64,000 nt of DNA from Escherichia phage UPWr_E2: the sequence record PP418986.1; one strand, given 5' to 3'. The position numbers were made by a program, and so were the translations under genes. Each line of letters opens with the position of its first letter. Within the stretch, counting starts at the first letter, position 1. Below are positions 2,961 through 61,179 of the stretch, piece by piece. The notes under the pieces are model-generated. The model was given only the letters and a program-made list of their open reading frames with translations. It made no database searches and was not told the origin of the DNA.

Positions 2961-3989
2961 ATGTCATCAATAGCTTGGATTGATAATGAGTTTGCATATC
3001 GTGCATTAGCTCATTTACCTAAATTCACACAAGTAAATAATAGTTCAACTTTTAAATTACGGTTTAGATGCCCAGTTTGTGGAGATTCAAAAACCGACCA
3101 AAATAAAGCGCGTGGATGGTATTATGGTGATAATAATGAAGGAAATATTCATTGTTATAACTGTAACTATCATGCGCCAATCGGAATATATTTAAAGGAG
3201 TTTGAACCTGATTTATATCGTGAGTATATCTTTGAAATAAGAAAAGAAAAAGGTAAAAGTCGTCCAGTAGAAAAACCTAAAGAACTTCCTAAACATCCTG
3301 AGAAGAAAATAATTAAATCTCTTCCGTCATGTGTTAGATTAGATAAACTGGCGGAAGACCATCCAATTATAAAATATGTAAAAGCTCGTTGTATTCCAAA
3401 GGATAAATGGAAATATCTTTGGTTTACAACCGAATGGCCTAAATTAGTTAATAGCATAGCACCGGGAACATACAAAAAGGAAATTTCTGAGCCTCGTCTT
3501 GTTATTCCAATTTATAATGCTAATGGAAAAGCTGAGTCTTTTCAAGGACGTGCATTAAAGAAAGATGCTCCTCAAAAATATATCACCATCAAAGCTTATC
3601 CTGAGGCAACAAAAATATATGGAGTCGAACGAGTTAAAGATGGTGATGTATATGTTCTAGAAGGACCTATAGATTCACTTTTTATTGAAAATGGTATAGC
3701 TATTACGGGTGGTCAATTAGACCTAGAAGTTGTTCCATTTAAAGATAGACGAGTGTGGGTTTTAGATAATGAGCCTCGTCACCCTGACACTATCAAGCGA
3801 ATGACTAAATTAGTTGATGCAGGAGAAAGGGTTATGTTTTGGGATAAATCTCCCTGGAAATCAAAAGATGTTAATGATATGATTAGAAAGGAAGGTGCAA
3901 CCCCTGAACAAATTATGGAATATATGAAAAATAATATTGCCCAGGGGTTAATGGCTAAAATGCGGTTATCTAAATATGCCAAGATTTAA
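2961..3989 (+). CDS. 61: DNA primase gp61
   Basis: 342 aa; Cys-rich zinc-ribbon region (CPVCGDS...CYNCNYH); matches T4 gp61. Confidence 0.95.
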   Translation: MSSIAWIDNEFAYRALAHLPKFTQVNNSSTFKLRFRCPVCGDSKTDQNKARGWYYGDNNEGNIHCYNCNYHAPIGIYLKEFEPDLYREYIFEIRKEKGKSRPVEKPKELPKHPEKKIIKSLPSCVRLDKLAEDHPIIKYVKARCIPKDKWKYLWFTTEWPKLVNSIAPGTYKKEISEPRLVIPIYNANGKAESFQGRALKKDAPQKYITIKAYPEATKIYGVERVKDGDVYVLEGPIDSLFIENGIAITGGQLDLEVVPFKDRRVWVLDNEPRHPDTIKRMTKLVDAGERVMFWDKSPWKSKDVNDMIRKEGATPEQIMEYMKNNIAQGLMAKMRLSKYAKI

Positions 3990-59819: not shown

Positions 59820-60155
59820 ATGTCTGAAGTACAACAGCTACCAATTCGTGCTGTCGGTGAATATGTTATTTTAGTTTCTGAACCTGCACAAGCCGGTGAT
59901 GAAGAAGTTACAGAATCAGGACTTATTATCGGTAAACGTGTTCAAGGTGAAGTTCCTGAACTGTGTGTAGTTCACTCTGTCGGTCCTGATGTTCCTGAAG
60001 GTTTCTGTGAAGTTGGTGATTTGACTTCTCTTCCAGTTGGTCAAATTCGAAATGTTCCGCATCCTTTTGTAGCTCTGGGTCTTAAGCAGCCAAAAGAAAT
60101 TAAACAAAAATTCGTTACTTGTCACTATAAAGCTATTCCGTGTCTTTATAAGTGA
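59820..60155 (+). CDS. 31: co-chaperonin gp31 (GroES analogue)
   Basis: 111 aa beginning [35 protein letters not shown]. Confidence 0.9.
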
Positions 60156-60302
60156 TATAAATAATAATATGAATTGGGTGTCGGAATAATAAGTTAACCG
60201 AACAATTCTATGTGGTAGTCTACAACTGAGAGATCTGTCGAAAGAAGATGAAATTCAGAAGAACGTGACTACCGAGTTTTAATCTCTAACGAGAATTTTT
60301 AA

Positions 60303-60551
60303 ATGATTAAACAATTACAACACGCTCTTGAACTGCAACGAAACGCATGGAATAATGGTCACGAAAACTATGGCGCATCTATTGATGTTGAAGCCGAAGC
60401 TCTTGAAATCCTGCGTTATTTCAAACATCTGAATCCTGCTCAAACTGCATTAGCTGCTGAGCTTCAGGAAAAAGATGAACTTAAATATGCTAAGCCTCTG
60501 GCTTCTGCTGCACGAAAAGCAGTTCGTCACTTTGTGGTAACACTGAAGTAA
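60303..60551 (+). CDS. rIII: rIII lysis-inhibition accessory protein
   Basis: 82 aa beginning MIKQLQHALELQRNAWNNGHENYG; downstream of gene 31. Confidence 0.85.
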   Translation: MIKQLQHALELQRNAWNNGHENYGASIDVEAEALEILRYFKHLNPAQTALAAELQEKDELKYAKPLASAARKAVRHFVVTLK

Positions 60552-60949
60552 TTTATTGGAGAGTCACTGCCTTAGTGTGAAGTTAAAACGAGGAGCCGTC
60601 GAACTGTCTGATTAATGATTTGCGAATCATTATAGTTTTAAGACCCCGGCAGTTTTACGGTGTACCTCTTGAATGTTATTCTTATAGCGGCAAGTGCATG
60701 CTACCCCGAGGTGATGGCCAATCGGGAGTACGCCTCAAGGCCTATATATCCATCAGTATATATCTTATCCTCGAGAAATCGAACCCGGAACCTTTAAGCT
60801 AACGGTGTGCAACAGATAAGAGCTATAAGGTATGATGACGGGTTTATAGTTATCCTGGTCGTTAAATATCCAAAAACTTATGTTCCCCTTGAGGGCTTGC
60901 GCAGGCAATGCCAATAAGTCCTGCATTTTCATTTAAAAGAGAATTTATA

Positions 60950-61126
60950 ATGGCAAAACAAGCTAAAGCAAAGAAAGCAGTTGAAAAGAAAGTTGGTGAT
61001 TCTAAACGCGCTGGCTACAAGCGTGGGTCGAACTCTCGTATCAATCAAACTGTTGAGAAGATCATGCGCCGAGCACGTGCGGTTCTTCGAGATGATGCTT
61101 CTCGTTTTGGTAAGCAGAAAGCATAA
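60950..61126 (+). CDS. small lysine-rich basic protein
   Basis: ORF MAKQAKAKKAVEKK...; start uncertain (track begins 60908); followed by strong terminator. Confidence 0.4.
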   Translation: MAKQAKAKKAVEKKVGDSKRAGYKRGSNSRINQTVEKIMRRARAVLRDDASRFGKQKA

Positions 61127-61130
61127 GTTG

Positions 61131-61160
61131 AGGACTCCTTCGGGAGTCCTTTTTTATTTT
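61131..61160 (+). terminator. rho-independent terminator
   Basis: AGGACTCC TTCG GGAGTCCT hairpin and T-run; same hairpin as after soc. Confidence 0.8.
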
Positions 61161-61179
61161 CCAAAGATTGCATAAAGTT

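What the first reader, a model, noticed from the sequence alone, without database searches (positions are those of the whole stretch)
60552..60949. GC-rich ~400-bp non-coding gap between rIII and a lysine-rich small ORF
Genes here are tightly packed, yet this stretch has no credible ORF and is visibly GC-richer than its AT-rich surroundings (e.g. GGCAAGTGCATGCTACCCCGAGGTGATGGCCAATCGGGAGTACGCCTCAAGGCC, CCTTGAGGGCTTGCGCAGGCAATGCC). It has short inverted repeats but no early-promoter box. It could be a structured RNA, an intron or mobile-element remnant, or a replication or packaging signal. I could not fold a tRNA cloverleaf from it.
Basis: seen in the sequence. Interest (0 to 1): 0.45.

Follow-up and report, generated by a model that had tools for sequence, protein, structure and literature searches.

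The report
New structured RNA in T4-like phages
The middle 155 bases of this gap encode a compactly folded RNA, not described before, that more than 400 T4-like phages keep but T4 itself lacks, so it is a good candidate for the first regulatory or catalytic RNA of this phage group beyond tRNAs and introns.

Summary
Window 60552-60949 is exactly the interval between the rIII stop and the gp30.9 start. It has no conserved ORF, promoter, terminator or tRNA, and its GC is 41.7% against 35.4% for the window.

The gap is not one element. Its core, 60679-60833 on the + strand, is a ~155-nt structured RNA. A closing helix P1 leads into a perfect four-way junction. Two hairpin loops form a 6-bp kissing interaction. 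A further arm carries a GAAA-type hairpin and a large invariant loop.

Across 34 distinct sequences from at least 12 phage genera, 96% of cells pair. 30 of 51 pairs show compensatory changes, against 7-9 in slid controls, and every helix covaries, including the kissing loop. G·U pairs put the RNA on the gene strand.

The core is 80-96% identical between genera in eight of nine comparisons, where the neighbouring rIII gene is 67-75% identical. It always lies between rIII and 30.9.

T4 and T2 lack it, as do many close relatives; some carry an unrelated ~48-nt cassette at the same site. It matches no Rfam 15 family, bacterial genome, plasmid, or T4 rnaC/rnaD, and I found no paper describing it.

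Its function is unknown. My best guess is an aptamer-like binding domain in the rIII-30.9 transcript.

The parts
60679..60833 (+). Structured RNA motif (whole covariance-model match, 155 nt)
   Evidence: Models R1 and R2 score 186 bits, E about 1e-38. It is the only hit in the 64-kb window. T4 lacks the block ~60677-60829.
60681..60688 (+). P1 5' strand (CUUAUAGC), pairs with 60822-60829
   Evidence: The closing helix differs in sequence between genera but is kept (TATAGC/GCTATA, TAAAC/GTTTA, ACAC/GTGT). 7 of 8 pairs have compensatory changes.
60822..60829 (+). P1 3' strand (GCUAUAAG)
60689..60691 (+). P2 5' strand (GGC), pairs with 60740-60742 (GCC)
   Evidence: 100% paired. C-G becomes U-A in Yersinia phage fHe-Yen9-01.
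60692..60699 (+). Invariant internal-loop strand AAG-N-GCAU (J2/3), opposite 60734-60739 (CUCAAG)
   Evidence: CGGYAAGNGCAU is invariant in all 34 sequences.
60700..60733 (+). P3/P3a arm: stem 60700-60708 with 60723-60733; P3a 60709-60711 with 60718-60722; loop L3 60712-60717
   Evidence: 9 of 12 pairs have compensatory changes and 99% of cells pair. The stem sequence is entirely replaced, yet still paired, in fHe-Yen9-01.
60712..60717 (+). L3 kissing-loop strand UGAUGG
   Evidence: Pairs with 60750-60755. Variants are UGAUGG/CCAUCA, CGAUGG/CCAUCG, CUAUGG/CCAUAG and CAAUGA/UCAUUG. All 34 sequences pair at all 6 positions, and 3 positions covary.
60743..60762 (+). P4 hairpin (stem 60743-60749 / 60756-60762) with loop L4 CCAUCA 60750-60755
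   Evidence: 3 of 7 stem pairs are compensatory and 99.6% of cells pair. L4 is the partner of L3.
60763..60769 (+). P5 5' strand (UCUUAUC), pairs with 60815-60821 (GAUAAGA)
   Evidence: 100% paired, 3 compensatory pairs.
60771..60782 (+). P6 hairpin UCGA-GAAA-UCGA
   Evidence: 3 of 4 pairs are compensatory (CUGA/UCAG, CAGA/UCUG, CCA/UGG). The loop is GAAA in most, GUAA, UAAA or UAAU in some.
60783..60808 (+). P7 (60783-60787 / 60803-60808) enclosing the conserved loop GGAnCC...UUUAAGCUAA (60788-60802)
   Evidence: 2 of 5 pairs are compensatory (A-U to U-A in Cronus, G-C to A-U in fHe-Yen9-01). The loop residues GGA.CC and GCUAA are invariant.
60809..60814 (+). Invariant junction strand GCAACA (J7/5)
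   Evidence: GCUAAYGGNGNGCAACAGAU is invariant in all members.
60590..60668 (+). Separate 5' module: long irregular hairpin (GAGG...CCUC) between rIII and the RNA
   Evidence: Present in T4 and in Tequatrovirus and Mosigvirus only. Predicted in the MFE fold. It is not part of the RNA family.
60831..60871 (+). Separate module A: UAUGAUG-ACG..GUUAUCC..CGUUAAA (hairpin with conserved loop; mini-ORF MMTGL* here)
   Evidence: Present in T4. It lies downstream of the RNA here, but upstream of it in Klebsiella phages and Muldoon.
60884..60924 (+). Separate 3' hairpins (CCCCUUGAGGG; GCAGG...CCUGC) in the 30.9 leader
   Evidence: Invariant among Tequatrovirus and Mosigvirus including T4. The GUACCCCUUGAGGGCUUG hairpin recurs in other genera on either side of the RNA.
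60303..60551 (+). rIII (lysis inhibition accessory protein), upstream neighbour
   Evidence: phrog_1457, E 5e-44. Annotated as rIII in related records.
60950..61126 (+). gp30.9, the lysine-rich 58-aa protein of unknown function, downstream neighbour
   Evidence: phrog_1427, E 2e-31. No Pfam family. T4 30.9 is annotated at the same position.
61130..61151 (+). Intrinsic terminator ending the transcription unit that contains the RNA
   Evidence: 9-bp GC-rich stem followed by a T run. Annotated as a terminator in JB75.
60156..60163 (+). TATAAATA (T4 late-promoter consensus) upstream of rIII; a likely source of late transcripts through the RNA
   Evidence: Read from the sequence. The consensus is established T4 knowledge. 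Use of this promoter here is inferred.

Best explanation
Window 60679-60833 (+) encodes a structured RNA of a family not described before. It is specific to T4-like phages of Enterobacterales.

It has no promoter or terminator of its own. It is therefore made as part of the rIII-30.9 transcript, which starts at promoters upstream (for example the late promoter at 60156) and ends at the terminator at 61130.

Shown: it folds into a self-contained domain. P1 closes a linker-free four-way junction. The P2-P3 arm and the P4 hairpin lie side by side, locked by a 6-bp loop-loop kissing helix. The P5 arm branches into a GAAA-type hairpin (P6) and P7 with a large invariant loop.

Inferred: this scaffold presents the invariant unpaired nucleotides (AAG-N-GCAU, GGAnCC, GCUAAYGG-GCAACAGAU) as a binding pocket for a conserved partner, either a small molecule or a host or phage protein. 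The RNA would then act as an aptamer-type regulatory domain on its own transcript. It could control the downstream 30.9 leader, where in many lineages an AAGAG/AAGG Shine-Dalgarno-like sequence and an AUG sit in or just after the P5/P1 3' strands. It could also control processing or stability.

The RNA is accessory. It is frequently lost, and T4 does without it.

That this is a real, selected RNA structure I rate at about 0.95. The specific cis-acting aptamer mechanism I rate at about 0.35-0.4, and that is the figure given as confidence.
For: Structure:
- RNAalifold on 10 genera gives 45 pairs, 20 of them with compensatory changes.
- On 34 distinct sequences 96.3% of cells pair. 30 of 51 pairs have double changes, against 7-9 for slid partners and 0 of 500 shuffles. 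Every one of the 8 helices covaries.
- The kissing helix is 100% paired at 6 positions with 3 covarying.

Strand:
- G·U pairs are frequent on the + strand (for example U·G in 31 of 34 sequences at one P4 pair and G·U in 13 of 34 in P3a). These would be A·C on the other strand.
- The GAAA and GUAA loops also read as such on the + strand.

Selection:
- The RNA core is 80-96% identical between genera in eight of nine comparisons where rIII DNA is 67-75% identical; the ninth, EcS1, is 71% for the RNA against 73% for rIII.
- Flanks are unalignable between E. coli and Klebsiella phages.
- No reading frame is conserved.

Context:
- Always rIII then RNA then 30.9, in sense.
- All 20 RNA-bearing IMG/VR loci have 30.9 100-200 nt downstream.
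- There is no promoter or terminator in the gap.
- An SD-like sequence and an AUG follow P1 in the window, JS98, Moon, L074, COW86c, EcS1 and fHe-Yen9-01.

Novelty:
- No Rfam 15 hit at E<=10 on either strand.
Against: - No expression platform is conserved across genera. 100-200 nt of other, independently folding modules separate the RNA from the 30.9 ribosome-binding site.
- The order of the RNA and module A differs between genera.
- In Klebsiella phages no AUG follows P1. The mini-ORF after P1 varies in length and frame, so SD sequestration may be incidental.
- Phages with identical RIII and gp30.9 proteins exist with and without the RNA, so neither neighbour depends on it.
- No transcript data were available.
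- The fold energy of the single sequence is only modestly better than shuffles (z = -1.8).
Confidence: 0.38

Rival explanations
1. The RNA is cut out of the rIII-30.9 transcript and accumulates as a stable ~150-nt RNA that acts in trans. It could be a decoy or sponge for a host factor or a host anti-phage system, or part of a small ribonucleoprotein. This would resemble the way T4 tRNAs and rnaC/rnaD are processed from longer transcripts.
For: - The domain is self-contained and closed by P1.
- Its position relative to the other intergenic modules is variable, while its own sequence is almost invariant.
- In Moon, L074 and Cronus it sits directly after the rIII stop, far from the 30.9 start.
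- Presence varies among near-identical phages, as is typical of accessory and counter-defence functions.
- It is found in 161 Klebsiella and 27 Enterobacter phage records but in only ~130 of ~580 E. coli phage records that share the gap.
Against: - It has no promoter or terminator of its own, and no conserved processing signals were identified.
- It has no similarity to any host sequence that it could mimic.
- No partner is known.
Confidence: 0.27
2. It is a new class of self-cleaving ribozyme, or another RNA-processing element, that separates the rIII and 30.9 cistrons.
For: - It has a compact junction fold with a tertiary loop-loop contact and blocks of invariant unpaired nucleotides, as in hammerhead, hairpin and twister-sister ribozymes.
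- From my own knowledge, many small ribozyme classes occur in phage intergenic regions.
- It is always in sense orientation within an mRNA.
Against: - It matches no known ribozyme family in Rfam.
- Known small ribozymes are usually multi-copy and found in many contexts. This one is single-copy and fixed at one locus.
- No candidate cleavage site can be named.
Confidence: 0.13
3. The element works at the DNA level, as a mobile cassette, recombination site, or origin or packaging signal. Its conservation would then reflect recent horizontal spread rather than RNA function.
For: - The site is a three-allele indel hotspot: empty in T4, the RNA here, or an unrelated ~48-nt cassette.
- The RNA is 100% identical between Tequatrovirus and Mosigvirus (JS10), which suggests exchange.
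- Module order is shuffled between genera. This resembles the modular shuffling of PeSL cassettes described in PMC2839356 and PMC4122927.
Against: - Compensatory substitutions in all helices and in the kissing loop across 12 genera show long-term selection on base pairing, not just recent transfer.
- G·U pairs fit only one strand.
- There are no terminal duplications and no promoter as in PeSLs.
- It is single-copy and absent from bacteria and plasmids.
Confidence: 0.04
4. It is a decayed or very small protein-coding gene, as several GenBank annotations imply.
For: Different records annotate hypothetical ORFs over it: JB75_0063A, COW86c_228, MVRL236, a 'Sixpack prediction' in PhiKpNIH-6, and a minus-strand ORF in Phi_KR8.
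Against: - These ORFs differ in frame and strand.
- No frame stays open in all members.
- Indels are not multiples of three.
- The substitution pattern is pairwise-compensatory, not codon-like.
Confidence: 0.02

Closest known systems
Junction-type riboswitch aptamers with a loop-loop contact (lysine riboswitch RF00168 with its 6-bp L2-L3 kissing helix; purine riboswitch)
   Same: A P1-closed multi-helix junction. Two neighbouring hairpin arms are held parallel by a Watson-Crick kissing interaction. Junction nucleotides are invariant while stems covary. The element lies in sense upstream of a gene.
   Different: No sequence or structure similarity detectable by Rfam models. It is a four-way junction with an extra three-way branch. 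No recognisable expression platform and no known ligand. The downstream gene has no known function, and the host is a lytic phage.
T4 rnaC and rnaD (species 1 and 2 stable RNAs)
   Same: Small (~120-140 nt) RNAs of T-even phages with unknown function, made by processing of longer transcripts.
   Different: They lie in a different locus (the tRNA cluster). Model R2 with filters off gives no match there (best 5 bits). T4 has rnaC and rnaD but lacks this RNA.
PeSL / PmSL mobile regulatory cassettes of T4-type phages (Arbiol 2010, PMC2839356; Comeau 2014, PMC4122927)
   Same: Short conserved intergenic modules associated with insertions, deletions and replacements between closely related T4-like genomes.
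   Different: PeSLs are a simple stem-loop plus an early (or middle) promoter. This element has no promoter, is a 155-nt multi-helix fold with tertiary pairing, and sits at one fixed locus.
Candidate cis-regulatory structured RNAs of phages upstream of gp20 and gp32 (Fremin et al. 2023, PMC10690425), and the T4 gene 32 and gene 43 translational operators (review PMC3014915)
   Same: Conserved RNA structures in leaders of T4-type genes, supported by covariation.
   Different: Those are tied to a known autoregulating protein or a specific gene start. That paper's text does not mention rIII. Its supplementary catalogue was not available, so overlap with one of its 10,006 anonymous candidates cannot be excluded.
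Hairpin ribozyme (natural four-way-junction form)
   Same: A perfect, linker-free four-way junction in which two adjacent arms dock through tertiary contacts.
   Different: No match to RF00173. The docking here is a Watson-Crick kissing helix between terminal loops, not loop A-loop B docking. No cleavage-site motif. Catalysis was not tested.

Membership tests
Any Rfam 15 family (4227 models, including riboswitches, ribozymes, introns, sRNAs) | Covariance-model score at or near the family's gathering threshold | tested here: not met
   No match at E<=10 inside 60552-60949 in a 2.5-kb scan. None at all for 60670-60840 alone on either strand.
tRNA / tmRNA | Cloverleaf or tmRNA detected by ARAGORN | tested here: not met
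   0 genes in the whole window.
T4 rnaC / rnaD | Homology to the annotated T4 stable RNAs | tested here: not met
   Model R2 with filters off on T4 68500-74500: best 5.2 bits, E 1.4, and not at rnaC/rnaD.
Riboswitch (generic) | Conserved aptamer fold with covarying stems and invariant junction nucleotides | tested here: met
Riboswitch (generic) | Consistent position upstream of the same gene | tested here: met
   gp30.9 lies 100-200 nt downstream in 20 of 20 RNA-bearing loci. This is also explained by simple synteny.
Riboswitch (generic) | Expression platform (terminator, or SD sequestration that alternates with P1) | tested here: inconclusive
   An SD-like AAGAG/AAGG and an AUG follow P1 in several genera but not in Klebsiella phages. 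No terminator follows. Other structured modules intervene before the 30.9 RBS.
Riboswitch (generic) | Specific ligand binding | not testable with these tools
   Needs in-line probing or ITC.
Self-cleaving ribozyme | Site-specific self-scission | not testable with these tools
   Needs an in vitro cleavage assay. Known classes are excluded by Rfam.
PeSL regulatory cassette | Stem-loop immediately followed by a sigma-70-like early promoter | tested here: not met
   No promoter-like site in 60552-60949.
PeSL regulatory cassette | Sits at indel boundaries between close relatives | tested here: met
   Three alleles at the same site among phages with 89-100% identical RIII.
Group I / II intron | Interrupts a gene; intron core detectable | tested here: not met
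   Intergenic, 155 nt, no Rfam intron hit.
Protein-coding gene | Reading frame conserved among homologues | tested here: not met
   No frame is open in all 34 sequences. Indels are not in threes.
Transposable element / MITE | Multiple copies, target-site duplication, varied insertion sites | tested here: not met
   408 places in 407 records. One hit in the window. Always the rIII-30.9 interval. No duplication at the T4 / non-T4 boundary.

The most novel reading that the evidence does not exclude
This is the aptamer of a new riboswitch class or a new ribozyme class, native to T-even-type phages. It would be the first such RNA in this model phage group. It went unnoticed for decades because T4 and T2 happen to carry the deleted allele. 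Alternatively it could be an RNA-only counter-defence decoy.
Probability: 0.3. Interest if true: 0.88.

Novelty: new variant of a known kind. Interest (0 to 1): 0.72.

Why it matters
T4 is the reference system for phage gene regulation. [quoted passage not shown] This element is such a candidate.

Its fold is well defined and supported by covariation, with a tertiary kissing contact. Its sequence is better conserved than the neighbouring gene in eight of nine genus comparisons. It occurs in more than 400 sequenced phages, including many Klebsiella, Enterobacter and E. coli phages proposed for therapy.

Nature provides isogenic-like controls: near-identical phages with and without it. Function should therefore be directly testable.

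There is also a practical point. Several GenBank records annotate spurious ORFs over it.

Tried and rejected
- **Rfam and tRNA.** Rfam at E<=10 on 2.5 kb and on the element alone gave nothing in the gap. ARAGORN gave nothing.
- **Reverse-strand tRNA.** By eye the reverse strand contains GGTTCGA, like a T-arm. ARAGORN and the covariation (G·U pairs, GNRA loop on the + strand) rule out a minus-strand tRNA-like gene.
- **Host origin or mimicry.** The invariant 20-mer had one match in 185,579 bacterial and archaeal genomes, in the cyanobacterium Moorena, with unrelated surrounding sequence. BLAST found no match in plasmids or in 5,426 E. coli genomes.
- **More distant members.**
  - A second pattern spanning both invariant ends found 12 new viral contigs. 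All were chance matches, with no model hit and unrelated sequence.
  - The metagenome scan gave 14 true hits, all ordinary T4-like sequences, and 9 chance hits.
  - 26 of 46 rIII loci have no hit with default filters; five of them were also searched with filters off, again without a hit at the site.
- **The alternative cassette as a decayed copy.** No model similarity.
- **Homology to T4 rnaC/rnaD.** None.
- **Extra helix AGGCG/CGCCU.** Rejected because it conflicts with the covarying lower P3 pairs.
- **J2/3 pairing with J7/5 (UGCA/UGCA).** Not supported. The variable positions do not covary, and U140 pairs with A108 instead.
- **11-nt GAAA-receptor reading of CCUCAAG/AUGG.** Does not fit the canonical motif.
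- **Literature.** Searches for the sequence itself and for T4-like structured RNAs returned nothing relevant. The supplement of Fremin et al. 2023 was not available.
- **An error of mine.** My PHROG query for gp30.9 was one base out of frame. It is corrected.

Full report
**1. The observation**

The window is a Tequatrovirus segment, 99.9% identical to Escherichia phage vB_EcoM_JB75 over 1.15 kb. On the + strand it carries:
- cd
- two small ORFs that T4 annotates as 31.2 and 31.1
- gene 31, at 59820-60155
- rIII, at 60303-60551
- a gap
- gp30.9, at 60950-61126
- an intrinsic terminator, at 61130-61151

The flagged interval 60552-60949 is exactly the rIII-30.9 intergenic space. Its GC is 41.7% against 35.4% for the window, the 95.6th percentile. 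It holds no promoter-like or terminator-like site and no tRNA. Nothing in it matches Rfam 15 at E<=10.

**2. The gap is modular, and T4 lacks the middle**

Aligning the gap with T4 shows that T4 has the first ~125 nt and the last ~120 nt but lacks a block of ~153 nt, roughly 60677-60829.

That same block is 96% identical in Klebsiella phage Phi_KR8, where the sequences on either side cannot be aligned with the window.

A BLAST of the block alone finds 407 phage records, in 408 places. By host name these include Klebsiella 161, Escherichia 130, Shigella 27, Enterobacter 27, Yersinia 18, Salmonella 7, Citrobacter 7, Serratia 6, Raoultella 4 and Erwinia 4.

In every record examined the block lies between rIII and the 30.9 homologue, on the gene strand. 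These records cover Phi_KR8, PhiKpNIH-6 (Marfavirus), KLB31 (Kanagawavirus), myPSH1140 (Karamvirus), Merlin (Moonvirus), Muldoon, COW86c, Cronus (Roskildevirus), EcS1 (Kagamiyamavirus), JS98/JS10 (Mosigvirus) and fHe-Yen9-01.

Between the window and eight of the nine genera compared, rIII DNA is 67-75% identical while the block is 80-96% identical. The exception is EcS1, at 71% for the block and 73% for rIII.

**3. It is an RNA structure**

RNAalifold on ten genera predicted 45 pairs, 20 of them with compensatory double changes. I refined the model by hand and built covariance models R1 and R2. I then collected 39 matches, 34 of them distinct, from GenBank loci, IMG/VR and metagenomes.

On that alignment:
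- 96.3% of 1731 cells are standard pairs. Sliding the partner by one to three columns gives 31-42%.
- 30 of 51 pairs carry changes on both sides. Slid controls give 7-9, and the shuffle mean is 12.7, with 0 of 500 shuffles reaching the observed value.
- All eight helices have at least one compensatory pair.

The alignment was fitted to the model, which favours it somewhat. However, the earlier MAFFT-only alignment gave the same picture: 95.7% paired and 25 of 51 compensatory pairs.

The most divergent member is Yersinia phage fHe-Yen9-01, at 126 bits. It replaces the whole P3 stem sequence and changes single pairs in P2 and P7, always in a compensatory way.

The architecture in window coordinates is:
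- P1, 60681-88 with 60822-29, closes a four-way junction that has no unpaired linkers.
- Arm 1 is P2 (60689-91 / 60740-42), an 8x6 internal loop with invariant AAG-N-GCAU, P3, P3a and the six-base loop L3 (60712-17).
- Arm 2 is hairpin P4 with the six-base loop L4 (60750-55).
- Arm 3 is P5 (60763-69 / 60815-21). It branches into P6, a 4-bp stem with a GAAA loop that is GUAA, UAAA or UAAU in some members. It also branches into P7, whose ~15-nt loop carries invariant GGAnCC and GCUAA.
- The invariant strand GCAACA follows P7.

L3 and L4 are complementary over all six bases. They covary at three positions: UGAUGG/CCAUCA, CGAUGG/CCAUCG, CUAUGG/CCAUAG and CAAUGA/UCAUUG. All 34 sequences are fully paired there. 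This is an intramolecular kissing complex.

G·U pairs are common (for example 31 of 34 sequences at one P4 pair), and A·C is essentially absent. The pairing constraint therefore acts on the + strand, the strand of the genes.

No reading frame is conserved. The hypothetical ORFs that several GenBank records place over the element disagree in frame and strand.

**4. Distribution and evolution**

The family is confined to T4-like phages of Enterobacterales.
- The invariant 20-mer occurs in 19 true IMG/VR contigs, all 165-178 kb T4-like genomes or fragments, and in 14 true metagenome contigs.
- Its only match in 185,579 bacterial and archaeal genomes is one unrelated sequence.
- BLAST finds nothing in plasmids or in E. 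coli genomes.
- A looser two-anchor pattern added only chance matches.

Of 46 IMG/VR loci that encode RIII, 20 carry the RNA. Five loci whose RIII is 100% identical to the window's do not.

At the same site some phages have nothing (T4 type). Others have an unrelated ~48-nt cassette (L035, L038, L039, L044) that shows no similarity to the model.

The position of the RNA relative to another conserved module (module A, below) differs between genera.

The picture is of an old, mostly vertically inherited accessory element. It is under strong purifying selection where present, is repeatedly lost, and sits in an intergenic region that is rearranged module by module. The RNA is 100% identical in Tequatrovirus and the Mosigvirus JS10, which also points to some recombinational exchange.

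**5. How it probably works**

- **Shown:** a self-contained fold with tertiary pairing, sense orientation inside the rIII-30.9 transcription unit, no promoter or terminator of its own, and dispensability.
- **Inferred:** the invariant single-stranded blocks, held by the junction and the kissing loop, form a binding site for a conserved partner.

I favour an aptamer-type cis element acting on its own transcript, at about 0.38.
- It always precedes 30.9.
- In many lineages an SD-like AAGAG/AAGG plus an AUG lies in or right after the P5/P1 3' strands.
- Against this, there is no conserved expression platform, and other folded modules separate it from the 30.9 ribosome-binding site.

A processed, trans-acting stable RNA, such as a decoy or counter-defence RNA, is nearly as likely at about 0.27. 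It fits the patchy distribution and the module shuffling.

A new self-cleaving ribozyme gets about 0.13. The fold style fits, but the element is single-copy at a fixed locus and matches no known class.

DNA-level or mobile-element readings (0.04) and a decayed ORF (0.02) are contradicted by the covariation.

**6. Comparison with what is known**

Nothing in Rfam 15 matches on either strand. The model finds nothing at T4's own orphan stable RNAs, rnaC and rnaD.

The closest analogues in architecture are junction riboswitch aptamers with loop-loop contacts (lysine, purine) and the four-way-junction hairpin ribozyme. These are resemblances of design, not membership.

PeSL cassettes (PMC2839356, PMC4122927) share the indel-prone behaviour. 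They are a stem-loop plus a promoter, which this is not.

Searches of the paper library for the sequence and for T4-like structured RNAs found no description. Fremin et al. 2023 list 10,006 anonymous phage candidates and discuss ones upstream of gp20 and gp32. Their text does not mention rIII, and their supplement could not be read, so overlap cannot be excluded.

The T4 review PMC3014915 notes that no riboswitch or trans-acting regulatory RNA had been functionally characterised in T4, and that relatives might provide candidates.

**7. Verdict**

This is a real, well-supported and apparently undescribed structured RNA family. It was missed because the model phages T4 and T2 carry the deletion allele. 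Its function is open.

I rate it as a new variant of a known kind, meaning a structured phage regulatory or non-coding RNA. There is about a 0.3 chance that it is a new riboswitch, ribozyme or decoy class. Interest is 0.72.

Noticed in passing
window 60214-60280 (31-rIII intergenic region): A second covarying RNA element lies in the rIII leader: GGUAGUC-UACAAC-UGA-GAGAUCU-GUCGAAAGA-AGAU-GAAAU-UCA-GAAGAACGUG-ACUACC. Klebsiella, Enterobacter and Citrobacter phages have the same element in a different place, between the new RNA and 30.9. There it reads GGGAGC-UACAAC-CGA-AAGAACU-GUCGAAAGA-AGUU-...-UCG-GAAGAACGUG-CUCCC, with compensatory changes in all three stems. It looks like a portable 5'-UTR module. 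It has no Rfam hit.
   Followed up: partly
window 60831-60871: Module A is UAUGAUG-ACG..GUUAUCC..CGUUAAA, a hairpin with a conserved loop that starts with AUGAUG. It opens a mini-ORF whose length is not conserved: MMTGL* here, ~34 codons in T4, MMTWLVVIRSLNIQNY* in L074, MMWTLLVIPT* in Klebsiella phages. It lies downstream of the RNA here but upstream of it in Klebsiella phages and Muldoon.
   Followed up: partly
window 60590-60668: A long irregular hairpin (GAGG...CCUC, with an inner UAAUGAUU-UGCG-AAUCAUUA hairpin) lies between rIII and the RNA. It is shared with T4 and Mosigvirus only. It contains GGAG, which from my own knowledge is the RegB endoribonuclease target motif, and shows a few wobble or compensatory changes.
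   Followed up: partly
L035, L038, L039, L044 (aligned to window ~60677-60829): An alternative ~48-nt cassette (TACTATCAYGCGTCAGAAAAG.GTTATCTGT.TAAG...) occupies the site where the RNA sits, in phages otherwise nearly identical in the flanks. It has no similarity to the RNA model. Its nature is unknown.
   Followed up: partly
window 60884-60896, and L049, L058, L055 and others: The hairpin GUACCCCUUGAGGGCUUG recurs across genera. It sits either right after the rIII stop (COW86c, EcS1) or after the RNA (Klebsiella phages, the window). It has no U tract, so it is not an obvious intrinsic terminator.
   Followed up: no
window 60908-61126; OL964735.1 T73t3_204: A 72-aa ORF starting at 60908 extends gp30.9 upstream. 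One T4 record annotates this as '1,4-alpha-glucan branching enzyme, GH-13-type', which is clearly an annotation error for a 72-aa lysine-rich protein. RefSeq T4 uses the 58-aa form.
   Followed up: no
window 61082-61165: There is a weak Rfam hit to Rhizobiales sRNA Atu_C8 (31 bits against a gathering score of 50). It is just the 30.9 terminator hairpin plus its U tract and is not meaningful.
   Followed up: yes
window 60156-60163: TATAAATA, the T4 late-promoter consensus, lies immediately after the gene 31 stop codon. It leaves a 140-nt structured leader before rIII.
   Followed up: no
Klebsiella, Enterobacter and Citrobacter phage loci (e.g. L055 ~3075-3116): The sequence AUGUAUUUCUCCAAAAUGGAAGA just upstream of the 30.9 start is conserved. 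It can form a hairpin that sequesters the GGAAGA Shine-Dalgarno-like sequence, and in some phages it reads as an in-frame N-terminal extension of 30.9.
   Followed up: no
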